Shown here: positions 4,107 through 32,000 of the stretch, one piece after another
Layout: every line of letters starts with the position of its first letter
Position numbering within the stretch: position 1 is the stretch's first letter
From: Thermosulfurimonas dismutans
GTDB lineage: Bacteria; Desulfobacterota; Thermodesulfobacteria; Thermodesulfobacteriales; Thermodesulfobacteriaceae
NCBI RefSeq assembly: GCF_001652585.1
Contig: NZ_LWLG01000004.1
Span: 60,001 to 92,000, forward strand
Length of the DNA stretch: 32,000 bases
Direction of reading: 5' to 3'
The notes under the pieces: model-generated
Database searches by the model: none
Told to the model about the DNA's origin: nothing
The model's input: only the letters and a program-made list of their open reading frames with translations
Translations under genes and position numbers: made by a program

Positions 4107-5464
4107 AGAAGCTAAAAATTCATCCTCTCACTCGCATCGAAGGTGATGCCTCCCTAGAAATAGTTTTCGATGATCAGGGAAATCTTAAACGTCTAAGATG
4201 GCTTTCGGAGCTTTTCCGAGGTTTCGAAAAAATCTGTCTGGGAAGACCAGTAGAAGAAATGCCCTTTTTAACCAGTCGCATCTGCGGTATTTGTGCCGAA
4301 GCTCACCATTTAGCCTCCCTCAGAGCTGTGGATCAAATTTTCGGGTTAACTCCCCCCCCTTGGGCCCAAAAAGTAAGGGCCATCTTCTTACTCTCTTCTC
4401 TCGTAAGAGACCACCTTACCGTCCTTTACCTTTTTTCAGGCCCAGACCTCAAGCCCAGCCCACAAAATAGGGAGGCCTTGGCCTGGCTAAAAGAAAATGG
4501 ACTGTTACACGATTTTCTCCAAAGCCGCTCTCGAATCAGACGAATACTTGAAATCGTAGGGGGCCGGGGACTTCAGGCAGTAGGAGGATTCCCTGGCAGC
4601 TGGAGCAAATCAATAACTGCTGAAGAAAAAGAAGAATTAATACAGCTTACACAAAAAGAAAGAGCCTTTGCGGCTAAAACGTTCGATTTTTTTGGTGAAA
4701 TTCTTTTAAAGAAAGAATATCAAAACCCCCTAAAAATTCCTTTTTTGGCCCTTTTACCGGACAATCTGCCAGGCTTTTTAGGTCGAAGGATTGGCATCCT
4801 GACCTCAGAAGAGAAACCCTATAAGGATTTCCGCGCAGAAAAATTTCAAGAATATATAGTTGAAGAAGATTCTACAGAATGCCCAAACCTTCGAACCACT
4901 CAATTAAAATCCTTAGGCCCCTATCTCGTAGGACCTTTGGCACGCTTTCATCTTTGGCCAGAACCTTCTACCCCCCTGGCCCAAAAGGCCTACCGAGAAA
5001 TCAAGAACTGTTTAAAACACCAACAACTTAGGGACTACGAAATAGCCCATCTCTTTAGGGCCTACGAAATTTTATTGGCTTGCGAACAAATAGAAAGCCT
5101 ATCTCAAGAGATTGAAATTCAGCGAAAAGATGAAAAAGAGCCGAAATTTGAGCTTCAAAGAGAAGGCATAGGAGTAGTCGAAGCCCCTAGGGGTCTTCTG
5201 ATCCACCATTACCAGGTAGACAAAAAAGGGCTTATCACAAAGGTTAATATCATCACTCCCACAGCCCAAAACTCTCCGATCATTTTCATGACTATAAGGG
5301 CCTACCTAAAATCTTCTCCAAAAAACAATCCTCAAAAATTAACTAAAGATATCGAAAAAATCATAAGAGCCTTTGATCCGTGCGTTCCATGCATGCTACA
5401 TATCATCCCCTCCAATAAGGACGCGGCCAAATTATCAATCGCCATTCAAAATAAGAGTTTTTAA
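4103..5464 (+). CDS. mvhA: Group 3c [NiFe] hydrogenase large subunit (MvhA-like)
   Basis: Contains RIEGDASLEI, the N-terminal Ni-Fe ligand motif RICGICAEAHH, and the C-terminal DPCVPCMLH followed by a 20-aa extension (the usual protease-cleaved tail). ATGA overlap with mvhG. Confidence 0.85.
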   Translation: MKKLKIHPLTRIEGDASLEIVFDDQGNLKRLRWLSELFRGFEKICLGRPVEEMPFLTSRICGICAEAHHLASLRAVDQIFGLTPPPWAQKVRAIFLLSSLVRDHLTVLYLFSGPDLKPSPQNREALAWLKENGLLHDFLQSRSRIRRILEIVGGRGLQAVGGFPGSWSKSITAEEKEELIQLTQKERAFAAKTFDFFGEILLKKEYQNPLKIPFLALLPDNLPGFLGRRIGILTSEEKPYKDFRAEKFQEYIVEEDSTECPNLRTTQLKSLGPYLVGPLARFHLWPEPSTPLAQKAYREIKNCLKHQQLRDYEIAHLFRAYEILLACEQIESLSQEIEIQRKDEKEPKFELQREGIGVVEAPRGLLIHHYQVDKKGLITKVNIITPTAQNSPIIFMTIRAYLKSSPKNNPQKLTKDIEKIIRAFDPCVPCMLHIIPSNKDAAKLSIAIQNKSF

Positions 5465-22662: not shown

Positions 22663-22717
22663 ACAATGCGAAGGATACTAGGAAATCTGAGGGCTCGAAA
22701 GGAGTTTTTTAATCAAG

Positions 22718-22791
22718 CGCCCCCGGGAGGACTCGAACCTCCGACTCCGGGATTAGGAATCCCGTGCTCTATCCGCCTGAGCTACGGGGGC
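22718..22791 (-). tRNA. tRNA-Arg (anticodon CCU)
   Basis: The reverse complement folds as a 74-nt cloverleaf: acceptor GCCCCCG/CGGGGGC, D stem GCTC/GAGC, anticodon stem CGGGA/TCCCG with loop TTCCTAA, T arm GGAGG-TTCGAGT-CCTCC, discriminator G. CCA is not encoded. Confidence 0.9.
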
Positions 22792-23167
22792 AAAGTGCCG
22801 AAATTGTTATTCTGTAGGAATCTTACCAGGATCAGCCCCTGGCTTCAAGAGCGTTCAAATCGGGTCAAAACAGACCAATTGCAATCAATTTTGCTTGCAG
22901 TTTGCTTGCACCCGTTAGCATGCTCATGGAGAGTTTTCAAAAGTGCCTTTATCACGCCCAATTCTTTTAAATGCTGGCAACCGACTTTAGCCACCGATAT
23001 CCTGCCGAAAACGATTTCGAAAGCCCTAAATTTAGGACTAATCACTGAAAATACTTAGGACTAATTGCGTTACAGCACTGTTTCACTCCGTTGTACAGGA
23101 TAAGTTAGTCTTTGAGGTTCCAGTTATCTTTCTCGTCACGCTACTTCACGACAGAGCCAACATTAAG

Positions 23168-24223
23168 CTAAAATCTATCAAATTTTTCCTGACCTTTAAG
23201 ATTATCAATTAAAAACTCTTTAAATTCTTTTTCAAATAAATTGAATGTTGTTTTTTTGAGCTCGGATAGATCTATAACATCATTTTCTTCAGAAATTAAT
23301 TTACTATAAATGCTTTTAACTATCTTTTCGTTTATTGTGTCTAAAAATCGGAAAGCAGAGGTTGCAAGATAAATTTGATTAATTTCAAAGGCAATCCATT
23401 TGCGACCTAATTTTTCTGCCGTTGCTCCAGTAGTATTTGAACCAGCAAAAATGTCTAAAACCACATCTCCTGGGTCGGTCAAAAACTTTATAAAAAATTC
23501 AGGGAGCTTTTGCGGAAATCTTGCAGGATGAGGTTTTACACCTACTATTTTACAACACCTTAAATATTGCGAATTACTTTCAGTATTTGGTATCTCAAGT
23601 AGGTTAGAAGGGATTGCTCCTCCCTTATTTTCAGAAAAGCGTTTACTTATGTTGTGTCCGGAAGGCCTTTTTTTGGGAGAATAATATTTTTCACTATTCT
23701 GAAGAAGAATTTTCATTCTTTCAGAATAAGGAACTAGTACTTTAGTAACATTTGCTTTGGGAAAATCGGATTTTGATAACCACCATATAGTATTAACAGC
23801 ATCTTTAACACGAATTTTGCGTTTGTTGACCCATTCTATAGGAGATGGAAGTTTAGATGGATTATACCAAAAAAATTCTTCTGCTAAATTCCATCCCTGT
23901 TCATCGCAAAGTCTTATAAGAAGTCTATAGTTATAAAGTGAACGTACAGGTCTCCCTTTAAGATAAACTCCTCCGAGGTCAAGTACAAAACTACCTGTTT
24001 TTTTTAATACTCTCTTTACTTCAATGGTAAAATTTAAAAGCCAATCTATATATTCATTTTGATCTACATTGCCGTAATCTTTTTGACGTTGTAATGGAAA
24101 TGGAGGTGAAGTTATTACAAGATCTATCGATTCTTCTGGTAGGAATTTAAGTAAACTCAAAGCATCTCCTACATAAGCTTCCCCTAAACGCGTTTTATAC
24201 AACAATTTGAACGAAGATTTCAT
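23168..24223 (-). CDS. Beta-class DNA methyltransferase (N4-cytosine/N6-adenine family; SPPF motif favours m4C)
   Basis: Start set at ATG 24223, in an ATGA overlap with the stop of the upstream gene (GGAG 6 nt upstream). Motif IV is DLVITSPPF near the N-terminus and motif I is DIFAGSNTTGATA near the C-terminus (order IV then I, i.e. beta class). Confidence 0.85.
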   Translation of the reverse strand: MKSSFKLLYKTRLGEAYVGDALSLLKFLPEESIDLVITSPPFPLQRQKDYGNVDQNEYIDWLLNFTIEVKRVLKKTGSFVLDLGGVYLKGRPVRSLYNYRLLIRLCDEQGWNLAEEFFWYNPSKLPSPIEWVNKRKIRVKDAVNTIWWLSKSDFPKANVTKVLVPYSERMKILLQNSEKYYSPKKRPSGHNISKRFSENKGGAIPSNLLEIPNTESNSQYLRCCKIVGVKPHPARFPQKLPEFFIKFLTDPGDVVLDIFAGSNTTGATAEKLGRKWIAFEINQIYLATSAFRFLDTINEKIVKSIYSKLISEENDVIDLSELKKTTFNLFEKEFKEFLIDNLKGQEKFDRF

Positions 24224-25689
24224 AAATTCTCCTCTAATCTCCAAATCCAGCTTGACATTATTTTCCAAAATACAGTCACAGCAAAATATACCTCTTTATC
24301 TTTCATCTTAATTTGTTCCATTCCATTGATATATCTCTGGGGATCCTGCATACCAATAATATAAGCAACCCATTTCCGAGCTTCTTCATCAGTCAAAAGA
24401 TCTAACATTTCTTCGAGTCTAAATTTTCCTGTCTGGCTTAATGCCCATGCTATTCCTGCTCTTTCTAATTCATTACTTTCTGAAAATTTTTTTATTATTT
24501 CAAAAGTAAATTGTCGAGCAAGTTTACTTAAAGCCCTAGCAGCTTCAATTTGTATATTTTTTTCAGTGGCATTAAAAGCTTCAATGAGTGCATCTATAGC
24601 TCTTTTGTTGCTCAGTTCTCCAAGAGCCCAAGCCGCTCCAGCACGTATTTCTGCATCTTGCTTCTTATCTAAAAGAATTTCTATTAACATTTGGCAAGAA
24701 GCATCATTATTAATTTCTCCTAATATTATCACAGCTTCTAATCTGCATTCTAAAGAATCATTTGTTAAGCATTGTTTAATAAATTCATATCCAATATCAT
24801 TTCCTTGTCGAAATAGACTTGCGGCTGCTTCAAGTTTTATAAGGAAATGTTCATATTGATCTTTAAGTTTCTTAACAAGAAGATCAGTAATCTCGGAAGA
24901 ATGAAAAAAAGCAAGGGCTTTTATAGCAGCATATTTATTAGTTAATAATGAACTAGAGAGCCACTTTATAAAATCTTCTTCTGAAAATAGCCTCTCACAT
25001 GGCAAAGTTGAGGTTACAGGAACTACAGAAGCTATGATCTGATTTTTAGTAATCTTTTCACCTTCTTTGACCAAAGGCTTCAATCTTTTGTTTTGCTTCC
25101 AAAGTTTTAAAGGTATAATTCTTCCGTTACTTTCTTTTCGATATTTCAACCGATCAGACTCAATTGATATAACAGTCCCGGCTGCCGAAGCAATACTTGC
25201 CGGCCATTGTATTCTCATCTCAAAACCTTCTTCTGCTCCTTTTGGTTGGGTTAAAATGGTAAGATTGTTTTGGTGGGCTAATCGTAAATCTCTAACAGAC
25301 ACATATTGAATAGGACCGTCTATTTCCCAAGATAATGGATTATTTCCTATTTGTTTGCATGCAACAAATGCAACAAAATCGTCATCTTTTAAGCCATAAT
25401 CCCATTTCCGATTTTGATTAGATTCAGAATGAGACATAGAAATTTCAAGTTTACTTTTTGCTCTACATTCAATACATCTTCCGCATTTTATACAAAGCAA
25501 ATCAGGAACTCTAATGCGTTTAATTTTTATCTTTTTCCAAATTTTAAAGCTCATTGATCCTCGTTCTAATTCAATAGGCTTATGTTCTAACTTTTTTAAA
25601 TGATCAAAGATAGCTATGGTTCCTGTTGCGCCAAGAGAAATTTTTTTTAAAAAACTCTCATCAGATTTAAATGCCTTTCTATTCGCCAT
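24220..25689 (-). CDS. 489-aa fusion protein: N-terminal PD-(D/E)xK-like nuclease signature with a CX2CX2CX2C cluster, a central barrel-like segment, and C-terminal HEAT/PBS-lyase-like repeats
   Basis: VPD63LLCIKCGRCIE74CR76AKSK resembles the PD...ExK strand pair (xPDLIxxKxGxxxxIEVK) with K replaced by R. GTVISIE...LVKEGEKITKNQIIASV resembles a lipoyl/hybrid-barrel motif. Repeats: ECRLEAVIILGEINNDASCQMLIEILLD, EIRAGAAWALGELSNKRAIDALIEAF, IQIEAARALSKLARQ, ELERAGIAWALSQTGK. AAGGAG lies 9 nt upstream of ATG 25689. Confidence 0.65.
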   Translation of the reverse strand: MANRKAFKSDESFLKKISLGATGTIAIFDHLKKLEHKPIELERGSMSFKIWKKIKIKRIRVPDLLCIKCGRCIECRAKSKLEISMSHSESNQNRKWDYGLKDDDFVAFVACKQIGNNPLSWEIDGPIQYVSVRDLRLAHQNNLTILTQPKGAEEGFEMRIQWPASIASAAGTVISIESDRLKYRKESNGRIIPLKLWKQNKRLKPLVKEGEKITKNQIIASVVPVTSTLPCERLFSEEDFIKWLSSSLLTNKYAAIKALAFFHSSEITDLLVKKLKDQYEHFLIKLEAAASLFRQGNDIGYEFIKQCLTNDSLECRLEAVIILGEINNDASCQMLIEILLDKKQDAEIRAGAAWALGELSNKRAIDALIEAFNATEKNIQIEAARALSKLARQFTFEIIKKFSESNELERAGIAWALSQTGKFRLEEMLDLLTDEEARKWVAYIIGMQDPQRYINGMEQIKMKDKEVYFAVTVFWKIMSSWIWRLEENL

Positions 25690-25737: not shown

Positions 25738-26373
25738 TTAGTACTTCTTGATCTTCTGGCACACCACGCCCACGATTTCGTGCTCGTCGGTCAATTCGAT
25801 TTCCGGGTATTTTGGATTCAGGGGGCGGAGGATCCGCTTGTCGCCGTAAACCTTGAGTTGCCTCAGCACGGCCTCGCCCCTGCCGTTGCACGCCACCACG
25901 TAGCTCCCGGAGATGGGCCTGCGGGTGGGGTCCACCACAATGATGTCCTCCTCCGTGAACTCGGGCTCCATGGAGTCGTCGTTGACTCTCAGGGCGAAGG
26001 CTCGCGGGCTCGCAGGGATCACCTCCACCCAGTCCCAGTGCTCCTCAGAGGCGCGGTCGGCCACCTTGAGGCCGTGGGAAGAGAGCTCTGTAGCTCCCCA
26101 GGTTTTGATCCAGCTCCAGGGGACCACCGGCACCTTCTCAACCCTCCTCACCTCAAGCCCCGCGGCCTCGGCAACCTCCTCAAAGGGCACCCCGAGGCCC
26201 AGGGCCAGCTTCTTCAGCGTTTCCACCTTGGGCTTTCGCTCGCCACGCTCAAGGAGCCGGATGTACTTCTCCGAGAGCCCGCTCCGCTTCGCGAGCTGGT
26301 TTATGGAGAGCCCCGCCTCCTCCCGCTTCCTGCGCACCCATTCGCCGAAGCTCACAGCCACACCTCCTGACAT
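25738..26373 (-). CDS. CI/LexA-like repressor: N-terminal XRE-type HTH plus C-terminal S24 autopeptidase domain
   Basis: HTH: LSINQLAKRSGLSEKYIRLLERGERKP. S24: ALRVNDDSMEPEF (catalytic Ser) and VLRQLK (Lys). An alternative start is GTG 26355, preceded by AGGAGG at 7 nt. Confidence 0.85.
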   Translation of the reverse strand: MSGGVAVSFGEWVRRKREEAGLSINQLAKRSGLSEKYIRLLERGERKPKVETLKKLALGLGVPFEEVAEAAGLEVRRVEKVPVVPWSWIKTWGATELSSHGLKVADRASEEHWDWVEVIPASPRAFALRVNDDSMEPEFTEEDIIVVDPTRRPISGSYVVACNGRGEAVLRQLKVYGDKRILRPLNPKYPEIELTDEHEIVGVVCQKIKKY

Positions 26374-26397
26374 TTGTCCTATCCAAAAACTTTTCTC

Positions 26398-26426
26398 TTG
26401 ACAATTTCGGACTTTTGTCCGATAAT
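26398..26426 (+). promoter_or_regulatory. Near-consensus sigma-70 promoter of the Cro-like gene; probably gives a leaderless mRNA
   Basis: TTGACA (26398-26403), a 17-nt spacer, then GATAAT (26421-26426). The A of ATG 26433 is 7 nt after the -10 hexamer and no SD sequence intervenes. Confidence 0.6.
26406..26421. promoter_or_regulatory. Operator candidate O-a: TTCGGACTTTTGTCCG (inverted arms CGGAC/GTCCG) inside the promoter spacer
   Basis: The exact 16-mer recurs at 26639-26654. The inverted repeat sits between the -35 and -10 hexamers. Confidence 0.55.
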
Positions 26427-26432
26427 AAAACC

Positions 26433-26669
26433 ATGTCCACCGTTCACTTTAATCCGGAGGTCCTGAGGAGGCTAAGGGAGGAGATGGGGCTCACCCGCGC
26501 CGAGCTTGAGGCCAGAAGCGGCGTGGACCGGGACACCATCTACGCCTGGGAGAGTGGCCGAAGGACGCCCTCGGCCCGGAGGCTGGCCCAGGTCGCCCAG
26601 GCCCTCGGCGCAAGGCTCGACGATTTTTTTGGCCCGTGTTCGGACTTTTGTCCGCAAAAAGATGGCTAG
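26433..26669 (+). CDS. Cro-like XRE-family HTH protein
   Basis: 78 aa from ATG 26433. HTH: LTRAELEARSGVDRDTIYAWESGRRTP. Divergent from the CI-like gene. Confidence 0.75.
   Translation: MSTVHFNPEVLRRLREEMGLTRAELEARSGVDRDTIYAWESGRRTPSARRLAQVAQALGARLDDFFGPCSDFCPQKDG
26639..26654. promoter_or_regulatory. Operator candidate O-b: second exact copy of TTCGGACTTTTGTCCG, 8 nt upstream of the replication gene start
   Basis: Identical 16-mer to 26406-26421. It lies within the 3' end of the cro-like gene. Confidence 0.5.
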
Positions 26670-27534
26670 CCCCCAGGTGGAAAACGGCTACACCAGGATC
26701 GCGAACGAGCTCCTGGAGGCCCTCTGCCGGGCCAGGCTCGGGAGCCGGGAGCTCAAGGTAGTGCTGGCGGTGGTGAGGCTCACATACGGCTTTTTGCGCA
26801 AAGAAAACACCATCTCCCTGGGAAAGCTTGCGGAAATGACGGGGTTGAGAAGAGAGAGGCTCTCAGAAGTGGTCAAAGCCCTTGAGCGGAAAAATGTCCT
26901 GCGGGTCAGCAAGGAAAATGGCCGGCTGATCCTGGGACTGCAAAAAGACTACTCCAAGTGGACGGGAGGGGTGTCCCAAAAACGGGGTACCCCAAAATTG
27001 GGACTGTCCCAAAAAAGGGTGTCCCAAAAACGGGGAACAGGGTGTCCCAATTTTGGGGAACAGGGTGTCCCAAAAAAGGGGAACACCCACACCCCTCAAT
27101 CCCTTGAGTCTCAAGCGTTTCACGGCCCCCTAAAGAAAATATATAAAGAAAACTTTAAAGAAACATCATCTATCTACAGAGAGGACGACTTCAAAGAAGT
27201 GATCTCCAAGTGGGAGGAGGTCTTCGGGGAGGCGTTTCCCCTTGAGAGGGCGCCGGAGAGCGTGAGGGCGGCGGACTTCATGCTTTACCTTCACGAGGCC
27301 GGGAGGCTCCCCGCGGTGAAGCGCCCCTCGGCCTACCTGAGAAAGCTTGCCGCGAGCGAGCTTGAGCCTTTCCCGAGCCTCGCCGAGCGGCGGGCCGCGG
27401 CCCGGGACGCAGAGGAGCGGATGCGCGAGCTCAACCGCCAACAGCTCGCCAAGCTCTACGCCCGCATGATGGCCGAGGGCTGGCCGGTCGAGGTCCCCGA
27501 GGAGCTCAGGCCCCTTGTGGCCCAAACCCAATAG
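26662..27534 (+). CDS. Phage replication initiator, lambda O-like N-terminal domain
   Basis: Start set at ATG 26662. MASPQVENGYTRIANELLEALCRARLGSRELKVVLAVVRLTYGF matches the replication-protein-O N-terminal pattern (nGyT.ipNellE.l....L...e.rvll.i.R.TyG). The iteron array and AT-rich patch lie inside the linker-coding part. Confidence 0.75.
   Translation: MASPQVENGYTRIANELLEALCRARLGSRELKVVLAVVRLTYGFLRKENTISLGKLAEMTGLRRERLSEVVKALERKNVLRVSKENGRLILGLQKDYSKWTGGVSQKRGTPKLGLSQKRVSQKRGTGCPNFGEQGVPKKGNTHTPQSLESQAFHGPLKKIYKENFKETSSIYREDDFKEVISKWEEVFGEAFPLERAPESVRAADFMLYLHEAGRLPAVKRPSAYLRKLAASELEPFPSLAERRAAARDAEERMRELNRQQLAKLYARMMAEGWPVEVPEELRPLVAQTQ
26971..27088 (+). repeat. Iteron array (putative ori): at least five copies of (G/C)TGTCCCAA(A/T)4-5(C)GGGG, the last three on a 23-bp period
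   Basis: Copies at 26971-26987, 27004-27019, 27019-27035, 27042-27058 and 27065-27081. An inverted variant CCCAAAATTGGG lies at 26991-27002. GGGGAACAGGGTGTCCCAA repeats exactly at 27032-27050 and 27055-27073. Confidence 0.75.
27131..27180. other. AT-rich patch next to the iterons (candidate DNA-unwinding element)
   Basis: TAAAGAAAATATATAAAGAAAACTTTAAAGAAACATCATC has 7 G/C in its first 40 nt, within an element that is otherwise about two-thirds GC. It starts about 45 nt after the last iteron. Confidence 0.5.
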
Positions 27535-27541
27535 GGGTTAA

Positions 27542-27555
27542 GTGAAAATTTTCAC
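27542..27555. promoter_or_regulatory. Perfect 14-bp palindrome GTGAAAATTTTCAC between the replication gene and the next gene
   Basis: The sequence equals its own reverse complement. It is AT-rich in a GC-rich context and lies 14 nt upstream of ATG 27569. Confidence 0.35.
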
Positions 27556-27568
27556 AAAGGGGGTAAGC

Positions 27569-27763
27569 ATGGTGGAGCACGAGATCAAAAAGCTCATGGC
27601 GGAGTTCGGGCCGGAGGCTGTGCTCAGCGCCGTCTCCGAGGCCCTCTCCCGCTGGGTGAGGGTGACCGGCAGGTGTCTTCTGACCGGGCGCAGGCTTGCC
27701 CACGAGAAGATCTGCGGCTACTGCCGCCGGTGCCCGGTGAAGCCCCTTGAGAGGAGGGCCTGA
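27569..27763 (+). CDS. Small hypothetical protein (64 aa) with C-terminal CxxCxxC
   Basis: AAAGGGGG lies 6 nt upstream of ATG 27569. The C-terminus contains CGYCRRC. Its stop overlaps the rusA start (TGATG). Confidence 0.5.
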   Translation: MVEHEIKKLMAEFGPEAVLSAVSEALSRWVRVTGRCLLTGRRLAHEKICGYCRRCPVKPLERRA

Positions 27764-28254
27764 TGCTTGCGGTCTTCGTGCGAGGGGTGCCCAGGCCCCA
27801 GGGGCGGCCGCGGATCGTGCGCTTCGCGAACGGGAAGGCCGGGCTCAAGGACCCGGAGGCCAGCCGGGACTGGAAGAACTACGTGCGGATGTGCGTGGCC
27901 GAGAGGGTGGCCGAGCCCCTCTCCGGGCCGGTGGCCCTGGAGCTCTGGTTCTACCTTCCAGTGCCGAAAAGTTTCTCAAGGAAAAAGCGTCTTGCGGCCC
28001 TTTCCGGGGAGATCCTACCGGCCAAAAAGCCCGACCTCGACAACCTGGTCAAGGCGGTGCTCGACGCCATCCTGGGGGTGGCCGTGCTCGACGACCGGCA
28101 GATCGTGGAGCTCCGGGCTGGAAAGCTCTACGGGGCCGTGCCCGGGGTGGAAATCGTCGTAAAGGAGCCCGGGGAGTCCAGCTCAAAATCCCTTGAAAGG
28201 AGGAACGGATGCCGAGCTACACCCACGAGTTTGCTATCCGCTGCGTGGCTCTGA
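27763..28254 (+). CDS. rusA: RusA-family Holliday junction resolvase
   Basis: GVPRPQGRPR..., KKPDLDNLVKAVLDAILGVAVLDDRQIV (the RusA catalytic Asp cluster). Confidence 0.85.
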   Translation: MLAVFVRGVPRPQGRPRIVRFANGKAGLKDPEASRDWKNYVRMCVAERVAEPLSGPVALELWFYLPVPKSFSRKKRLAALSGEILPAKKPDLDNLVKAVLDAILGVAVLDDRQIVELRAGKLYGAVPGVEIVVKEPGESSSKSLERRNGCRATPTSLLSAAWL

Positions 28255-28439
28255 AGGAAAAGAGCGACCAGAACGTAGTGGAGGTCAAGCTTGAGATGGT
28301 GGTGCGGGACACGGAGGACCTCTCCTTCATCATGGACCTGGTGCGCCTCAAGCAGTTGCCCCTGGTCACGGTGAGCTTCCACTCGCCGCAACAGAGGCTT
28401 CCCCTGGAGGGAAAGGTTGAGTCTCGCCCTGCTAATTAG
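28209..28439 (+). CDS. Hypothetical protein (76 aa)
   Basis: Strong RBS AAGGAGGA 5 nt upstream of ATG 28209. Overlaps the rusA tail by 46 nt. No recognisable motif. Confidence 0.5.
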   Translation: MPSYTHEFAIRCVALKEKSDQNVVEVKLEMVVRDTEDLSFIMDLVRLKQLPLVTVSFHSPQQRLPLEGKVESRPAN

Positions 28440-29028
28440 CCTCGCCCTCCTTGCGGCGGCCCCGGCCCTGGCCGAGGACCCGGTGTCCTTCATCGTGGCC
28501 CGGAGCCCGGAGCTCTCCGAGCTTTCAAGCTTCAACCGGAGCCGGCTCTCCAACCTCACGGTCAAGCTCCGGGGCACGGTAAAGCAGGGCCAGGAGACGC
28601 TCTCCGGCCTCACGGCGGAGGAGAGGGCCCGGGTCGGCTACGACCTCAGGCTCATCGCCGAGCTCCCGCTTTTCTCGCCCAAGGAGCGCCTGGAGATGAG
28701 GCTCAGGGAGCTCAGGCTCAGGCGGAGGGTGCGCCAGGAGGCCGCTAGAGCTGTGGCCCGCTACCGGAGCCTCAAAAAGACCGTGGCCAGGAGGCAGGCC
28801 CTGGTCGCCGCCGTCCGGGAGGAGTGCCTCTGGCTCAAGCGCAGGGTGGAGGCCGGGCTTGAGCCCTCGGAGCGGGTCATCTCCTGCGTGAAGGAGCTTG
28901 AGGGCCAGAAGGAGAAGCTCGAGACGCTCCGGGAGGAGCTCTCCGAGGCCCTTGAGACCGTGCTCTCAATGGTGGGGCCGGGGGACAGGGAGCGCCTCAA
29001 GGAGATCCTGGATGCGGAGGATCGTTAG
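28417..29028 (+). CDS. Secreted or membrane-tethered coiled-coil protein
   Basis: TTG start with GGAGGG 6 nt upstream. Signal-like MSLALLISLALLAAAPALA|ED. Long Arg/Glu/Leu heptad-like region (RLEMRLRELRLRRRVRQEAARAV...LEGQKEKLETLREELSEALE). Confidence 0.55.
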   Translation: MSLALLISLALLAAAPALAEDPVSFIVARSPELSELSSFNRSRLSNLTVKLRGTVKQGQETLSGLTAEERARVGYDLRLIAELPLFSPKERLEMRLRELRLRRRVRQEAARAVARYRSLKKTVARRQALVAAVREECLWLKRRVEAGLEPSERVISCVKELEGQKEKLETLREELSEALETVLSMVGPGDRERLKEILDAEDR

Positions 29029-29647
29029 CTCGTTTCAGAGGATCGGCCGGAGGTTCTACGGCACGGTCTCGGTTAAGGCCTTCGGCCGCAGGGTGGATCA
29101 CTTCCGGCTCCGGGCCGGGATGAGCGTGCTCATCGAGGGCGGGCCGCTTTCCGGGAAAACGGCCTTCCTGCGGCGCCTGGCCTCTCAGCTCGCCGAGCTC
29201 CGGGAGCCCGTAATCTTCATTGATGCCACTTCCCCAGTGACCAAGTGGCTCTCCGAGGTCACGCCCCCGGTGCCCCTGAGCGCGAGGAAGGCCCTCTCCT
29301 GGAGGCTTGCGAACCTGCCGGAGCGGTTCTACCTCCTTCTCGACAACGCCGAACGGGTGGCCGACGGCCAGAAGCTGGAGGTGGTGCTGGAGCTCCTGGC
29401 CAGGGCCCGCACCGCGGTGGTGGCCGGGCGATCCTACTCCTCCCTCCACCCAAGGCTCCAGGCCCGCCTGCGTGAGGCCAAGGTGGTCTCCCTGGGTTGC
29501 GGGGCCGACACCTTCGACGCCACCTACGTGCTCGTAGCCGTGCTCATCATCTTGGTGGCGCTCTCCGGGATGCACCACCTGGTGCTCCTGGCCGCGGCCG
29601 TGCGCTACCTCTTCCAGGGGATCAGGATCGGGGGCCGAAGGATATGA
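29012..29647 (+). CDS. P-loop NTPase (AAA-like) with C-terminal transmembrane helix
   Basis: Start set at ATG 29012 (AAGGAG 7 nt upstream). Walker A GGPLSGKT, Walker B-like FYLLLDNAE, and a hydrophobic tail YVLVAVLIILVALSGMHHLVLLAAAV. Confidence 0.6.
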   Translation: MRRIVSSFQRIGRRFYGTVSVKAFGRRVDHFRLRAGMSVLIEGGPLSGKTAFLRRLASQLAELREPVIFIDATSPVTKWLSEVTPPVPLSARKALSWRLANLPERFYLLLDNAERVADGQKLEVVLELLARARTAVVAGRSYSSLHPRLQARLREAKVVSLGCGADTFDATYVLVAVLIILVALSGMHHLVLLAAAVRYLFQGIRIGGRRI

Positions 29648-30240
29648 CCTGGCCGAGCCACATCCTCATGGGGATCGCGCTTGCCAAGGGCTTCGACCTT
29701 TCGCTTCCCTGGTGCGTGGCCGGGAGCCTGTTTCCGGATCTTGCCGAGATGCTTGCGAGGCGCATCGTGGTCCGGGGGAAAGCGGTCTTCGTCGGCCTCC
29801 CCCAGATCGCCCACCGCACCTACACCCACTCTCTGCTCTTCGCCGGGCTTTGCCTCCTTGCAGGCTGGGGAATCTTCCCGATCCGGAGCTTCTTCGCCGG
29901 GGTGCTCTTTGGGCACCTGCTTCTCGACGCCCTCACCGTGATGGGCGTTCCGGTGGTTGACGGGAGGCACCGCAGGGTTACCCTTTTCGGAGGGAAGATC
30001 CGCACGGGGTCGCTCGCCGAACTCGTGGCGGTGCTGGCCCTCGCGTTCACCACCTACGCCGTGGCCCCAGCCGTGAAGGTCGGTGGCCTTGAGGACCTCT
30101 ACCAGCAGGGGGTGATAGACAGGTATGAGTACGAAAAGAGAAAGAAGGCCCTTTTCGATCTTCTTCTTTGGCGCCACTCTGGCCCTCCTCCTTCTCGGCA
30201 CCTTCCTCCCTCTGTGGAGCGCCTACTCGAAGAGCCTTGA
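29644..30240 (+). CDS. Membrane-bound metal-dependent hydrolase, YdjM/DUF457-like, with SHOCT-like C-terminal segment
   Basis: ATGA overlap with the preceding stop. MTWPSHILMG, FPDLAE, AHRTYTHSLLF and GHLLLDALTVMGVP match the DUF457 pattern. The tail LEDLYQQGVIDRYEYEKRKKALFDLL resembles a SHOCT domain. Confidence 0.7.
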   Translation: MTWPSHILMGIALAKGFDLSLPWCVAGSLFPDLAEMLARRIVVRGKAVFVGLPQIAHRTYTHSLLFAGLCLLAGWGIFPIRSFFAGVLFGHLLLDALTVMGVPVVDGRHRRVTLFGGKIRTGSLAELVAVLALAFTTYAVAPAVKVGGLEDLYQQGVIDRYEYEKRKKALFDLLLWRHSGPPPSRHLPPSVERLLEEP

Positions 30241-30664
30241 GGCCCGGGTGGTTAAGGTTTACGACGGGGACACGGTAACGGTTCTGCTGGGTGGGCGGCG
30301 CGAGAGGGTCCGTCTCATCGGGATAGACTGCCCGGAGCTCCGTCAAAGGCCCTGGGGAAAGCGCGCCAGGGACTTTCTGAGGCGGCTCGTCCTGCACCGC
30401 ACCGTGCGCCTGGAGCTGGATGTTGATCCCTGGGATCGCTACGGGCGCCTCCTGGCCTATGTGTGGCTTGACGGCGAGCTCGTGAACGAGACCCTGGTCA
30501 GGGAGGGGCTCTGCCTGATCTACACCGTGCCGCCCAACGTGAAGCATGCGGAGAGGTTCCGGGAGGCCCAGAGGTGGGCCAGGGAGCACGGCCGGGGCTT
30601 CTGGGCCGAGGGCGGGCTCTCGGAAACGCCCTACCAGTGGCGCAGGCGCCACCGCAGGCACTAG
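30125..30664 (+). CDS. Thermonuclease (staphylococcal nuclease/SNase-like) with N-terminal membrane anchor
   Basis: VYDGDTVTV, RVRLIGIDCPE and DRYGRLLAYVWLDG are SNase signatures. N-terminal helix FSIFFFGATLALLLLGTFLPLW. A later GTG start (~30247) would remove the anchor. Confidence 0.8.
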   Translation: MSTKRERRPFSIFFFGATLALLLLGTFLPLWSAYSKSLEARVVKVYDGDTVTVLLGGRRERVRLIGIDCPELRQRPWGKRARDFLRRLVLHRTVRLELDVDPWDRYGRLLAYVWLDGELVNETLVREGLCLIYTVPPNVKHAERFREAQRWAREHGRGFWAEGGLSETPYQWRRRHRRH

Positions 30665-30678
30665 CCTCCGCCTTCCAT

Positions 30679-30695: not shown

Positions 30696-31162
30696 TTCCT
30701 GCGGCCCTTGCGGGCCGGGGGCCTCGCCCCGCCTAAGCCGGGGGGCGGGCCTCGGCCCCACCGGGCGATCCGGCCCGTCCGGGTGGGCTCGCCCGCACCT
30801 GGGGTCCGGCCCGAAAAAGAAATCTAACCCACCGAAAATGCGCCTCTAAACGGCCCATATTTGGCCTCTAAGAGGATTTTTTTGGCCAATAGTATCGAAC
30901 ATATCGGGGCGAGAAAATCGATTCTGGGGCGAATCTGAGCGGATTTTTCACCGGGCTTGTCCTGGGACCACCTAACGGCTAGGGCCACCTAACCGGGTCA
31001 TGATTTGAGTTGAGTTTCTGGCTCGCCACAGCCTCCCCCGCCACCGGCGCCCCCCTCCCCCGAAGTGCTCGGCCCCCTCCCCCCGCCGCGCCGTCGGCCT
31101 CGCCCCCGCTCCAGGGGGAGGGGGCCTGCGCTGTCTTTGAGGCTCGGTGCCTCCGGTGCCGT

Positions 31163-31227
31163 GGGAAAGGCTGGAAGCGTCCTGCGGTGGGAAAAGCCCG
31201 TGGAATAGAAACCTTCCAGCCTTTCCC
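31163..31227. repeat. Perfect 15-bp inverted repeat GGGAAAGGCTGGAAG / CTTCCAGCCTTTCCC with a 35-nt loop
   Basis: The arms at 31163-31177 and 31213-31227 are exact reverse complements. They lie in a region with no convincing genes. Confidence 0.7.
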
Positions 31228-31506
31228 CCTCTTTCAGTTGTAGCCCTCCGGCCCCTTATGCGGCGCAAGGCCTCCGGCCCCTGACGGGGCCTCCGCAAGC
31301 TCGCTCCGGGGCTTTGCCCCTCCGCTCGGCCTTGCCCCGCGGGGCCTCCGGGCTGTTCCAAAAGTGCGGGGTTCGGCTGGGGAAAAAGGCTTTTGGGTTT
31401 TTTTGGCCTGGGGGCCTTGGGGCTCTGTGCCTCCGGGGCCTGTGGGTCCGGCCCTTCCGCCTGCGGTGGGGCCGGCCCGTTAAAAAAACTTTTGGGGGTG
31501 TGGCTA

Positions 31507-32000
31507 TGGGCGGCGTTTCTCCCTTGGCTTGCCTTCCGGTTTTTTCGGCGGTTTCGGTCTCGGCGGTGGCCTTCGGGGGCGGGGCGGTGCTCCGGCGCTC
31601 GTCCCGGTCGCTCTCCGGGTTCGTGGCCTGGTGCTGGTTCCCGTCCTGGGGGCTTGCCCGGCGGTGGGCCTCCTTCTGGGCCGGGCGGCTTCCGGCCGCG
31701 TGCCGGGGCGTGGTGGTGCGCCGGGCGCCGTTTCCGGCCTCGGGGTGGGTGGTTTCCGTGCCGGTGCTCCCTCGGGTGGGGGCGTGCCGTGGTTAGGTTG
31801 CCGGGGTGGGCTTCGGCGGCCGGGGGCCGGGTGCTCCGGGTTCTCGGCCCCGCGGTGACGGTCTGGTTCCCCTCCGGGTTTCTGGCCCAGGCCTTCGCCC
31901 TCTCCTGCGGGCTCTCCCCGGCTCGGGCCTTCCGGGCGCCCTCCGGGGGCTTTGCCGTGGTGGTGCCGGCCTCGGCCCTCTCCTCCGTCCGGCCCCGGTG
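31507..32000 (+). other. Adenine-free tract on the + strand (T-free on the - strand), running to the window edge
   Basis: Direct count: no A in 31507-31794 (288 nt). Only three A (31795, 31858, 31889) in 31507-32000. The tract is G > C > T in composition. Confidence 0.95.

What the first reader, a model, noticed from the sequence alone, without database searches (positions are those of the whole stretch)
31507..32000. About 0.5 kb with essentially no adenine on the + strand (288 nt with none)
Seen in sequence: 31507-31794 contains no A at all, and 31507-32000 contains three. Just upstream (31381-31506) the only A residues besides a single one at 31506 are an A5 run and an A7 run (31383-31387, 31482-31488), each followed by CTTTTGGG-like sequence. 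The tract is G-rich with substantial T, so it is keto-skewed on the + strand. This has mechanical consequences. No stop codon (TAA/TAG/TGA) can occur on the + strand. Neither a stop nor any ATG/GTG/TTG/CTG start can occur on the - strand. ORF callers are therefore misled on one strand (the 160-aa and 109-aa + ORFs) and blind on the other. The + strand also carries G-quadruplex-type runs, for example G4-T-G3-N11-G5-CC-G3 at 31803-31831 and GGGGGCGGGG at 31575-31584. Such strict single-base exclusion is not a normal outcome of high GC content. The possibilities below are all inference. (a) A T-free low-complexity coding region on the minus strand. (b) A strand-asymmetric mutational footprint, with A to G and C to T changes on a strand that is often single-stranded, as in rolling-circle or R-loop-primed replication or heavy transcription. 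(c) An R-loop/G4-forming replication or packaging signal of the element. (d) An assembly or read-processing artefact at a contig end.
Basis: seen in the sequence. Interest (0 to 1): 0.75.

Follow-up and report, generated by a model that had tools for sequence, protein, structure and literature searches.

The report
Adenine-free operon in a satellite-like prophage
The adenine-free stretch is real: it is the sense strand of two small, conserved, co-translated genes of a mobile element, written almost without the letter A (codons, ribosome-binding sites and untranslated leader), and distant relatives share this, which points to selection for a messenger RNA (or its template) lacking one base, something I could not find described for bacteria or phages.

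Summary
Observation confirmed: 31507-31794 has no A and 31507-32000 has three; no other base-free run in the window outside 31000-32000 exceeds 47 nt. It is not an artefact, a minus-strand low-complexity tail, a G4/R-loop signal or a hypermutated copy. It is a + strand operon: ORF-A (ATG 31506 to TAG 31796, annotated in Thermosulfurimonas dismutans) and ORF-B (GTG 31789, runs off the window). Two homologous metagenomic loci about 70% identical align without frame-breaking indels, mismatches concentrate at codon position 3, dN/dS is 0.24-0.59, and the frame switches at the stop/start overlap. A is avoided at synonymous sites (0/164 codons versus about 10% expected), in the Shine-Dalgarno (GGGGG instead of GGAGG) and in the 5'UTR. 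ORF-A belongs to an uncatalogued family (53 profile hits); 35 of 54 representatives use at least 90% A-free-codon residues. Distant members have A-free runs of 436 and 825 nt in flanks with 25-33% A. Replacements do not follow an A-to-G path, so selection is more likely than mutation. The element is a roughly 11-13 kb integrative, satellite-like unit. Why A is excluded is unknown. My leading inference is a transcript immune to adenosine-dependent attack.

The parts
31018..31481 (+). A-poor (about 9% A), GC-rich, noncoding structured leader upstream of the operon. It contains a C-rich stretch (about 31030-31110) and strong hairpins (for example 31071-31126 and 31163-31227).
   Evidence: It is conserved with L159 132-440. 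Indels there are not multiples of 3. RNA/DNA folding z = -3.4 (+) and -4.4 (-) against dinucleotide shuffles. Inverted repeats I2 and I6. Both arms of one hairpin are shortened in L159. Function unknown.
31482..31488 (+). A7 run, the last adenines before the transcript-like A-free stretch. It may be a -10-like promoter element and/or the pairing partner of the T7 run at 31399-31405.
   Evidence: The position is analogous to TAAAAT in L159 and to the extended -10 TGTATAAT in L160, just upstream of the same RBS context. It pairs with the U7 run in the predicted fold. The promoter role is inferred, not shown.
31494..31500 (+). Adenine-free Shine-Dalgarno of ORF-A (GGGGGTG), 7 nt before ATG 31506.
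   Evidence: GGGGGTGT occurs 8 times against 0.56 expected, and is present in all 5 A-free loci. It lies 6-7 nt upstream of cistron starts in every locus, whereas ordinary neighbouring genes use A-containing GGAGG-type sites.
31506..31796 (+). ORF-A: ATG...TAG, 96 aa. Its only adenines are in the start and stop codons. Residues are drawn only from G A V L F S P R C W (plus the initiator Met).
   Evidence: sequence. It is 100% identical to a T. dismutans hypothetical protein, P0121, which is annotated from GTG 31500. Homologs in L157 and L159 are 67-74% identical (aa), mismatches by codon position are 18/22/41, 17/22/41 and 23/24/53, and dN/dS is 0.24-0.33. A family of 53 profile hits has nearly invariant R32 S34 G40 V42 F47 A53 W60 P65 C68 R74 V85 S86 P88. 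The AF2 model has pLDDT 74, with an N-terminal helix plus beta-beta-alpha-beta-beta.
31507..31794 (+). The 288-nt run with no adenine. It is exactly the body of ORF-A, between the A of the ATG and the A of the TAG.
31778..31796 (+). Conserved cistron junction: A-free SD (GGGGG 31778-31782), ORF-B start GTG 31789-31791, and ORF-A stop TAG 31794-31796, giving an 8-nt overlap.
   Evidence: The same junction, GGGGG[TC]GT.CCGTGGTT(AG/GA), occurs in L162 at 4119-4137 and 4429-4446. Equivalent junctions are in L157 (536-555) and L159 (718-740). The start codon position is conserved: L157 ATG 548, L159 GTG 730.
31789..32000 (+). ORF-B, 5' two-thirds (70 codons in the window). By homology it is about 105-107 aa and ends ...G(R/S)LF* about 110 nt beyond the window. 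It contains three adenines (AGG 31795, ACG 31858, CAG 31889).
   Evidence: Homologs in L157 (548-870) and L159 (730-1047). Mismatches by codon position are 18/15/40, 15/18/25 and 30/26/54; dN/dS is 0.27-0.59; all indels are multiples of 3. It resembles the second cistron of L162 and is weakly similar to ORF-A (E 0.06).
25738..30664 (.). The rest of the mobile element inside the window: cI-like S24 repressor (25738-26373, -), Cro-like HTH (26415-26669), Rep_O (26506-27534), RusA (27763-28254), AAA-like protein, YdjM/SHOCT, and SNase (30125-30664).
   Evidence: Pfam scans. The same genes in the same order occur in L159, which also carries Xis (HTH_17) and an integrase downstream of the A-free module and has no structural genes. 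DNA homology to three other relatives stops at the SNase stop codon.

Best explanation
The tract is the sense (+) strand of a small operon in a roughly 11-13 kb integrative, satellite-like element of Thermosulfurimonas dismutans. The operon has a short A-free 5'UTR and two translationally coupled genes. ORF-A runs 31506-31796. ORF-B starts at 31789 and ends about 110 nt beyond the window. Both encode conserved proteins under purifying selection. ORF-A is a small alpha/beta domain that defines an uncatalogued family found in temperate phages and related elements. Adenine is excluded from the whole transcribed unit: all three codon positions, the Shine-Dalgarno (GGGGG instead of GGAGG), the 5'UTR, and often the start codon (GTG). 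Only stop codons and a few indispensable residues keep an A. This is shown to be a maintained, family-wide trait, and I infer that it results from selection, not mutation. The selected object is most likely the mRNA without adenosine, or equivalently its template strand without thymine. The purpose is inferred only. An adenosine-free mRNA cannot be cut or modified by enzymes that need an A in their site. From my own knowledge, not tested here, these include most mRNA-interferase toxins such as MazF (ACA), ToxN (AAAU) and HigB/RelE-type toxins, A-preferring HEPN RNases such as Csx1/Csm6, and adenosine deaminases. It also needs none of the tRNAs that decode A-containing codons, which are the usual targets of anticodon nucleases. 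The element could therefore express these two proteins when host or helper-phage conflict systems shut down ordinary messages.
For: Coding on the + strand: the A-free run is bounded exactly by ATG and TAG of one frame. A codon model restricted to A-free codons picks the ORF-A and ORF-B frames (z 3.1 and 4.0). The alignment to L157 is ungapped over 460 nt at 70% identity, with position-3 mismatch excess (13/18/36 and 16/15/40) and dN/dS 0.30 and 0.25, and the frame switches at the stop/start overlap. All six pairwise comparisons with L157 and L159 agree. ORF indels are multiples of 3 while leader indels are not. The start codon and SD are conserved. ORF-A is annotated by NCBI, and its AF2 model has pLDDT 74. 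Nucleotide-level exclusion: A3 is 0/164, 6/197 and 4/193 codons, against 10.6, 10.1 and 19.0% in other genes of the same loci. 5'UTRs have 0/17, 0/41 and 0/85 A. The SD is A-free at every cistron, whereas neighbours use GGAGG. In L159 the module has 4.8% A and 71% GC inside an element with 28.8% A and 48% GC. Family-wide trait: 53 profile hits share a conserved core, and 35 of 54 representatives have at least 90% of residues from the A-free-codon set. Distant members L160 and L162 have A-free runs of 436 and 825 nt. These begin downstream of -10-like elements, and in L162 they end at the last stop codon and intrinsic terminators. Selection rather than an A-to-G process: replacements are N to S, T to S, D to S, M to L and Y to S/F, Arg is CGN-encoded, composition does not fit A-to-G conversion, and reduced-alphabet searches find no parent copy.
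Against: There is no expression data, so transcription, its start and end, and translation are inferred from sequence. The promoter assignment is weak in the window itself: the A7 run is only -10-like, and the scan found no sigma-70 site. Only two close and two distant loci could be examined at the DNA level. The profile that found the family was built from A-free members, so the 35 of 54 figure is biased toward them. The proteins have no known function and no recognisable fold match. The upstream leader still contains adenines, so if it is part of the same transcript the mRNA is not A-free. The benefit I propose (immunity to A-dependent RNases, tRNA cleavage and the like) is not tested by any result here. 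No cognate nuclease was identified in the window. An A-free RNA would still be open to A-independent nucleases.
Confidence: 0.6

Rival explanations
1. The selected object is the DNA, not the RNA. A template strand with no thymine, or a non-template strand with no adenine, is favoured. Possible reasons are that thymine-directed lesions or modifications on the template would block RNA polymerase (from my own knowledge: DarT-type ADP-ribosylation of ssDNA thymidines, thymine-containing photoproducts, hypermodified T), or that transcription then needs no ATP during elongation.
For: The boundaries coincide with a transcription unit, which fits the template strand as well as the RNA. The exclusion covers untranslated parts. 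These elements are temperate and carry an SOS-type S24 repressor.
Against: The adaptations in translation signals (A-free SD with a G-U wobble, GTG starts, single-A stop codons) are equally expected under this view, so it is not excluded. However, the host is a deep-sea vent anaerobe, which makes UV an unlikely driver. Translation would still need ATP. No DarT-like or nucleotide-depleting gene was seen in the window.
Confidence: 0.15
2. The exclusion is selected at the level of decoding. The genes avoid every codon containing A so that they can be translated without tRNAs carrying U at anticodon positions 35/36 (Lys, Glu, Gln, Asn, Asp, His, Tyr, Ile, Thr and others). This would help when those tRNAs are cleaved by anticodon nucleases or are uncharged.
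For: The strictest exclusion in the window is inside the ORFs (4 A in 495 nt, against 41 in 462 nt for the leader). The amino-acid alphabet is reduced to 10 residues across many family members.
Against: Third-position A is also avoided, although NNA codons of the allowed amino acids would not need U35/U36 tRNAs. The untranslated 5'UTR, the SD and the 3' region up to the terminator also lack A. Codons alone do not explain that.
Confidence: 0.08
3. A strand-specific mutational process erased adenines: local A-to-G hypermutation, transcription- or R-loop-associated deamination of the displaced sense strand, or repeated adenine-specific mutagenic retrohoming as in diversity-generating retroelements. 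The proteins merely tolerate it.
For: The sense strand is keto-skewed (G+T 65%). The tract is transcription-unit sized. Family members range continuously from normal to fully A-free.
Against: G minus C is only +33 while T minus A is +113, which does not fit A-to-G conversion of a parity sequence. Replacements at K/N/D/T/Y/M columns are not those predicted by A-to-G. Arg is encoded by CGN. C, which deaminates much faster than A (my own knowledge), is retained at 27-35%. Purifying selection is clear. Adjacent genes in the same operons are normal. There is no reverse transcriptase in the complete element L159 and no template-repeat copy.
Confidence: 0.1
4. The tract is a noncoding nucleic-acid signal (G-quadruplex or R-loop forming origin, packaging site, structured RNA), and the ORFs are by-products of a stop-free composition.
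For: Any A-free + strand is open in all three frames, and a spurious call exists in L162. The neighbouring leader is highly structured.
Against: Codon-position-specific divergence, 3n indels, and conserved SD, start and overlap junctions. There is a conserved protein family that includes normal-composition members. There are 0 canonical PQS against 1.3 expected. Folding of the tract is not better than shuffles on either strand (z +0.4 and +1.1). No Rfam match.
Confidence: 0.03
5. The tract is a T-free low-complexity (Pro/Arg/Gly-rich) C-terminal tail of a minus-strand gene that starts beyond 32000, or an assembly or read-processing artefact at a contig end.
For: Minus frame 2 ends with TAG at 31506..31504, exactly at the tract boundary, and minus frame 0 is open to 30972.
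Against: The minus-strand peptide has no homolog in 5.8 billion proteins. Minus frames show dN/dS above 1, or worse values than the + frames. The periodic signal changes minus frame at 31796. In relatives the region beyond the tract holds a promoter and + strand genes, not the body of a minus-strand gene. Against an artefact: the same genes occur in an isolate genome, two JGI metagenomes, one NCBI assembly and one SRA-derived assembly, diverged by real substitutions.
Confidence: 0.02

Closest known systems
Motif-avoiding, toxin-resistant transcripts (for example ACA-less mRNAs that escape MazF; own knowledge, not tested here)
   Same: Sequence is constrained at synonymous and non-synonymous sites so that an mRNA lacks the recognition element of an RNA-cleaving enzyme while still encoding a protein.
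   Different: Those cases avoid a 3-7 nt motif. Here one whole base is excluded from 0.5-2.2 kb transcription units, including the SD and UTRs, at the cost of reducing the protein alphabet to 10 amino acids. No cognate nuclease is identified.
Adenine-depleted signal-sequence coding regions of vertebrate mRNAs (ALREX elements; PMC2100149, PMC3077370)
   Same: A coding region is depleted of adenine beyond what its amino-acid content requires, and the depletion acts as a property of the RNA itself.
   Different: That is a eukaryotic nuclear-export signal of about 60-100 nt at the 5' end of genes for secreted proteins. It is a depletion, not an exclusion, and is unrelated in mechanism, organism and scale.
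Diversity-generating retroelements (adenine-specific mutagenesis)
   Same: This is the only well-known prokaryotic process that acts specifically on adenines of one strand of a phage gene.
   Different: It requires a reverse transcriptase and a template/variable repeat pair, diversifies about 100-150 nt, and does not yield an A-free product. There is no RT or repeat here, and the region is conserved rather than hypervariable.
Restriction-site or codon avoidance in mobile elements (for example palindrome avoidance in phages, TTA-free genes in Streptomyces; own knowledge)
   Same: Selection removes particular sequence words from genes of mobile or regulated elements.
   Different: Those involve specific words on both strands or one rare codon. 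Here the exclusion is a strand-specific single base over a whole operon.
Small integrative phage satellites and lambdoid early regions
   Same: The carrier element has an integrase, Xis, cI/Cro-type switch, Rep_O replication module, RusA and a nuclease, with no structural genes (L159). The module sits between the replication operon and an operator-controlled promoter.
   Different: Membership in any named satellite family (PICI, P4-like, cf-PICI, PLE) was not tested. No helper phage is known.

Membership tests
Protein-coding gene under purifying selection (+ strand ORF-A and ORF-B) | Substitutions concentrated at third codon positions and dN/dS below 1 in the proposed frame only | tested here: met
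   Six pairwise comparisons give position-3 excess and dN/dS 0.24-0.59. Other frames give values above 1, except the antisense frames that share position 3, and those are worse than the + frames.
Protein-coding gene under purifying selection (+ strand ORF-A and ORF-B) | Indels in multiples of three; conserved start codon and ribosome-binding site | tested here: met
   ORF indels are 12, 9, 9, 6 and 3 nt, against 1, 2, 5 and 7 nt in the leader. A GGGGGTG SD lies 6-7 nt before each start.
Protein-coding gene under purifying selection (+ strand ORF-A and ORF-B) | Evidence of transcription and translation | not testable with these tools
   No RNA-seq, ribosome profiling or proteomics is available here.
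Uncatalogued ORF-A small-protein family (core VRxSxRSLSG[FW]V..F..A..FA..WA..LP..CRG..VR...VSVPV) | Presence of the conserved core with the nearly invariant residues | tested here: met
   The window ORF-A carries R32 S34 G40 V42 F47 A53 W60 P65 C68 R74 V85 S86 P88. There are 53 profile hits at E up to 1e-3. No Pfam, NCBIfam, PHROG, PADLOC or PDB match.
Diversity-generating retroelement variable region | Nearby reverse transcriptase and a template repeat differing from the tract at adenines | tested here: not met
   No RT among the genes of the complete relative L159 or of the window. No direct repeat or reduced-alphabet copy scores above shuffled controls.
G-quadruplex / R-loop forming element | Enrichment of G-run motifs and strong GC skew on the non-template strand | tested here: not met
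   0 canonical PQS (1.3 expected) and 1 relaxed PQS (2.5 expected). GC skew is only 0.05-0.18, while AT skew is -0.78 to -0.98.
Structured noncoding RNA | Match to a known family, or folding energy better than shuffles | tested here: not met
   No Rfam hit at E up to 1. The tract gives z +0.38 (+) and +1.13 (-). The separate upstream leader does fold significantly.
Minus-strand low-complexity disordered tail | A conserved minus-strand reading frame with homologs | tested here: not met
   No homolog of the minus-strand peptide. Minus frames are not conserved. Relatives have no upstream minus-strand gene.
Integrative temperate element / phage satellite | Integrase, excisionase, repressor switch and replication module, without virion structural genes | tested here: inconclusive
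   All are present in L159, an 11.4 kb circular permutation of the same gene order. The window shows the repressor, Cro, Rep_O, RusA and SNase, but its integrase end lies beyond 32000. Dependence on a helper phage was not tested.
Toxin-resistant (motif-free) transcript | A cognate A-dependent nuclease in the host or element, and demonstrated resistance | not tested
   Absence of every A-containing motif is trivially true.

The most novel reading that the evidence does not exclude
Adenine-free operons are a general and so far unrecognised strategy of temperate phages and satellites. Whole messages, including the ribosome-binding site and UTRs, are written with C, G and U only, so that they survive and are translated when adenosine-dependent RNases, RNA deaminases, anticodon nucleases or ATP-depleting immune effectors have silenced every ordinary mRNA. 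As a corollary, folded functional proteins can be built from a 10-letter amino-acid alphabet (F L S C W P R V A G) with no acidic residues, Lys, Thr, Ile, Tyr, Asn, Gln or His.
Probability: 0.3. Interest if true: 0.95.

Novelty: categorically new. Interest (0 to 1): 0.86.

Why it matters
If confirmed, this would be the first natural example of genes constrained to a three-base alphabet. It would show selection on a whole transcript's composition strong enough to rewrite the proteins it encodes. It suggests a new layer in phage-host conflict: messages made invisible to base-specific RNA attack. It also gives a natural test of how few amino-acid types suffice for a folded, conserved domain. It exposes a practical blind spot too. 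Such regions have no stop codons in any sense frame, so gene callers mis-frame or fuse cistrons, as seen in L162, and composition filters hide the family from domain databases. Because one carrier is a cultured organism (T. dismutans), the predictions can be tested directly.

Tried and rejected
1. Recovering DNA beyond 32000. Exact-protein lookups of window genes and of P0001 and P0121 found nothing. The single genome-contig scan, made with SNase, returned only distant SNases and a 1.3 kb relative. A 53-mer of the tract is absent from viral contigs. 2. Megablast of the tail against plasmids and phages: no match. 3. Minus-strand tail peptide: no homologs. 4. Relatives found through SNase (L155, L156, L081) lose homology exactly at the SNase stop codon and lack the tract. 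The tblastx of the tail was uninformative low-complexity noise. 5. Tandem repeats and Rfam: nothing relevant. 6. Reduced-alphabet (A to G, C or T) alignments to find an unmutated parent scored no better than shuffles. 7. ORF-A versus ORF-B paralogy: only E 0.06, though the L162 cistron 2 suggests it. 8. Fold search of the ORF-A model gave only generic small alpha/beta hits (E at least 0.08), and afdb50 was not available. 9. The AF2 model of a long fused member had pLDDT 45 and was unusable. 10. Family searches in IMG/VR, by protein patterns and by an RBS plus non-A DNA pattern: none. tblastn against INPHARED phages and PLSDB plasmids: none. 11. A Chi-like GCTGGTGG motif is present in L157 and L162 only, so it is not a shared feature. 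12. Literature: four searches found only the eukaryotic adenine-depleted signal-sequence regions.
Full report
OBSERVATION. The window is 32 kb with near-equal base composition overall. Positions 31507-31794 contain no A, and 31507-32000 contain three (31795, 31858, 31889). The composition of those 494 nt is G204 C171 T116 A3. Outside 31000-32000, the longest stretch in the window lacking any one base is 47 nt. In 2.2 Mb of unrelated fetched loci the longest A-free run is 163 nt.

CONTEXT. Positions 1-22.6 kb hold housekeeping genes (NiFe hydrogenases, HypF, MiaB-type radical SAM enzymes, a LeuA-like enzyme, aspartate kinase). A tRNA-Arg(CCT) lies at 22717-22791. An AT-rich island at 23.0-25.7 kb carries a type II DNA methyltransferase and a HEAT-repeat protein. 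From 25.7 kb onward there is a GC-richer prophage-like early region: cI-like S24 repressor, Cro-like HTH, Rep_O, RusA, an AAA-like protein, YdjM/SHOCT and a thermonuclease. The thermonuclease and the ORF in the tract are 99% and 100% identical to proteins named from Thermosulfurimonas dismutans, both on a 115 kb contig. The source is therefore this cultured deep-sea vent thermophile or a near-identical strain. I could not obtain the contig beyond 32000.

WHICH STRAND, AND IS IT CODING? Minus frame 2 stops at 31506..31504, exactly at the tract boundary, and minus frame 0 is open down to 30972. But the minus peptide has no homolog in 5.8 billion proteins, and the tail in that frame shows no codon periodicity and an un-gene-like 28% A at third positions. 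On the + strand, the only A at the left boundary (31506) is the A of an ATG preceded by GGGGGTG. The A that ends the 288-nt run (31795) is the A of an in-frame TAG. So the run is exactly the body of a 96-codon ORF whose only adenines are in its start and stop codons. A codon model restricted to A-free codons prefers this frame (z 3.1). Downstream of 31796 it prefers a different frame (z 4.0) that opens right at the ORF-A stop.

COMPARATIVE PROOF. A protein search with the two + strand ORFs found the NCBI annotation of ORF-A (P0121) and a 77%-identical metagenomic protein (P0122). Its contig (L157) carries the homologous tract, also A-poor (3.7% A against 24% in its flanks). Window 31541-32000 aligns to it without a single gap at 70% identity. 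Mismatches fall 13/18/36 on codon positions 1/2/3 of ORF-A and 16/15/40 of ORF-B, with dN/dS 0.30 and 0.25. All other frames give dN/dS above 1, except the antisense frames that share third positions; those are worse, one has a stop in L157, and they change frame at 31796. A third locus (L159) gives the same result: six pairwise comparisons yield dN/dS 0.24-0.59, always with an excess at position 3. Indels inside the ORFs are 12, 9, 9, 6 and 3 nt, whereas in the upstream leader they are 1, 2, 5 and 7 nt. The ORF-B start is conserved in position (window GTG 31789, L157 ATG 548, L159 GTG 730) and overlaps the ORF-A stop by 8 nt, which is the classical arrangement for translational coupling. The tract is therefore two + strand genes under purifying selection. 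The 109-aa ORF is spurious.

THE EXCLUSION IS AT THE NUCLEOTIDE LEVEL. The amino-acid alphabet is reduced to F L S C W P R V A G, yet that alone does not explain the pattern. Third-position A is 0/164 codons in the window, 6/197 in L157 and 4/193 in L159. Other genes of the same loci use A3 at 10.6, 10.1 and 19.0% in codons with no A at positions 1-2. The Shine-Dalgarno sites are A-free variants: GGGGG(T)G lies 6-7 nt before each cistron start. GGGGGTGT occurs 8 times against 0.56 expected and is present in all five A-free loci, while neighbouring ordinary genes use AAGGAGG-type sites. The 5'UTRs are A-free (0/17, 0/41 and 0/85). Start codons are often GTG, and stop codons are mostly the single-A TAG or TGA. 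In L159 the module is 71% GC with 4.8% A, inside an element that is 48% GC with 28.8% A. So the composition belongs to the module, not to the genome.

A FAMILY-WIDE TRAIT. An exhaustive profile search found 53 proteins (E up to 1e-3) sharing a clear core, VRxSxRSLSG[FW]V..F..A..FA..WA..LP..CRG..VR...VSVPV, with 13 invariant or nearly invariant positions. Some members have ordinary composition (57-70% of residues in the A-free-codon set). However, 35 of 54 representatives are at least 90% restricted, and five use no other residue after the initiator Met; this count is biased by the A-free query profile. I examined three further members at the DNA level. L160 has A-free runs of 436, 124 and 323 nt across the gene. 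They begin just after an extended -10 (TGTATAAT) and the same RBS context, cttgggggtgtgtcGTG. L162 has an 825-nt run with no A and about 2.2 kb nearly A-free, in flanks with 28-33% A. The normal-composition member L161 is not depleted. In L162 the unit contains at least three coupled cistrons joined by the same SD, start and stop overlap junction as in the window (GGGGG[TC]GT.CCGTGGTT(AG/GA)). The last cistron was found only by homology, because the database call is in the wrong frame. Adenines return at the last stop codon, where two strong intrinsic terminators lie. So the A-free stretch behaves as a transcription unit. The family has no match in Pfam, NCBIfam, PHROGs, PADLOC or the PDB, nor in IMG/VR, INPHARED or PLSDB. 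The AF2 model of ORF-A is moderately confident (pLDDT 74), showing an N-terminal helix plus beta-beta-alpha-beta-beta, with no significant structural neighbour.

THE CARRIER ELEMENT. L159 (11.4 kb) is a circular permutation of the window's gene order. It runs module, near-consensus promoter (TTGACA-17-TAGAGT) embedding a TCGGACAnnTGTCCGA palindrome, small genes, RecE-like gene, HTH_17 excisionase, integrase, cI-like repressor, Cro, Rep_O, RusA, AAA-like protein, YdjM/SHOCT and SNase, with no structural genes. L157 shows the same promoter architecture with a different palindrome (TCGTACAnnTGTACGA). The window's element is thus a small integrative, satellite-like unit. The operon sits between the end of the replication operon and the operator-controlled promoter of the recombination, excision and integration operon. 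Another family member lies in a temperate phage between early genes and the terminase/structural genes.

MUTATION OR SELECTION? A pure A-to-G footprint predicts that G exceeds C by as much as T exceeds A; the observed values are +33 against +113. It also predicts K, N, D and E to G, T to A, Y to C, and M to V. At columns where normal members have these residues, A-free members instead show N to S (0.48), T to S, D to S, M to L, Y to S/F/A and K to A/R/G. These are chemically tolerable substitutes encoded without A, and Arg is encoded by CGN. Cytosine is retained at 27-35%. Neighbouring genes in the same operons are normal. There is no reverse transcriptase or template repeat. Together with dN/dS below 1 and the re-engineered translation signals, this favours sustained selection against A in the sense strand. 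The choice between the mRNA and the T-free template strand as the selected object is not settled by my data.

REJECTED ALTERNATIVES. G-quadruplex motifs are at or below expectation (0 canonical against 1.3), and GC skew is weak (0.05-0.18) compared with AT skew (-0.78 to -0.98). The tract does not fold better than shuffles on either strand, and it matches no Rfam family. An artefact is excluded by five independent assemblies carrying diverged homologs.

WHAT REMAINS INFERENCE. The promoter upstream of ORF-A, the extent of the transcript, translation itself, the function of the two proteins, and above all the reason for excluding adenine are not shown. The explanation I consider most likely is that an mRNA without adenosine cannot be recognised by A-dependent endoribonucleases or deaminases, and needs none of the tRNAs usually targeted by anticodon nucleases. 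The element could then express these proteins during conflict. I give about 0.3 to that specific rationale. I give about 0.9 to the gene model and about 0.75 to selection over mutation.

NOVELTY. Four literature searches found adenine-depleted coding regions only in vertebrate signal-sequence regions that act in mRNA export (PMC2100149, PMC3077370). I know of motif avoidance (ACA-less messages, restriction-site avoidance) but of no natural operon that excludes a whole base. I therefore rate it as categorically new, with the caveat that the literature tool covers only open-access text.

Noticed in passing
window 31018-31481 (also L159 132-440, L162 3000-3234): Upstream of the A-free operon lies a GC-rich, A-poor, noncoding leader. 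It folds significantly better than shuffles on both strands (z -3.4 and -4.4) and has a C-rich, G-poor stretch (31030-31110). One hairpin has both arms shortened by 5-6 nt in L159. In L159 two terminator-like hairpins fall in it. Its role is unknown; it could be a terminator or insulator for the replication operon, a Rho site or an origin-like structure.
   Followed up: partly
L162 4186-5283 (database gene call) versus true cistrons 4130-4446 and 4440-5081: Because an A-free sense strand has no stop codon in any frame, the public gene call (365 aa) is in the wrong frame and hides two real coupled cistrons. Some long 'fused' family members in databases may be similar mis-calls.
   Followed up: partly
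window 26393-26414; L159 5412-5433 and 1056-1084: The Cro-gene promoter region is nearly identical in the window and L159 (TTGACAATTTCGGACTT). It shares the TTCGGAC half-site with the palindrome TCGGACAttTGTCCGA in the promoter that follows the A-free module in L159. This suggests one repressor/Cro pair controls both operons. L157 has the same layout with a different palindrome (TCGTACA..TGTACGA), as expected for a different immunity type.
   Followed up: partly
window 22717-25689: A tRNA-Arg(CCT) is followed by an AT-rich island (about 36-40% GC against about 65% for the element). The island carries a type II N6/N4 DNA methyltransferase (PADLOC MTase_II, 4e-154) and a 489-aa HEAT-repeat protein, both on the minus strand next to the repressor gene. 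It is probably cargo at the left end of the integrated element.
   Followed up: partly
window 30962-30993; L159 about 113-125: There are two direct copies of CCACCTAAC, 17 nt apart, in the spacer between SNase and the leader. The same motif occurs in inverted orientation (TTAGGTGG) at the equivalent place in L159. It may be a protein-binding site.
   Followed up: no
window 30661-30665 versus L155, L156 and L081: DNA homology to three related elements (76-86% identical across the early genes) stops exactly at the SNase stop codon, and what follows differs in each. This marks a mosaic junction, so the A-free module behaves as an exchangeable cassette.
   Followed up: partly
L161 424-1041; L162 6424-6987: A SWIM zinc-finger protein is encoded next to the normal-composition family member, and another near the A-free operon of L162. 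This is a possible functional partner of the family.
   Followed up: no
L157 570-587; L162 (three sites): The octamer GCTGGTGG (the E. coli Chi sequence) occurs twice within 20 nt in L157 and three times in L162, but not in the window, L159 or L160. It is probably a by-product of G/T-rich coding sequence.
   Followed up: partly
window 30125-30664: The thermonuclease at the end of the replication operon matches a PADLOC candidate defence component (C3a212, SNc+LTD, 2.6e-24). NCBI annotates it from an internal start (138 aa).
   Followed up: no
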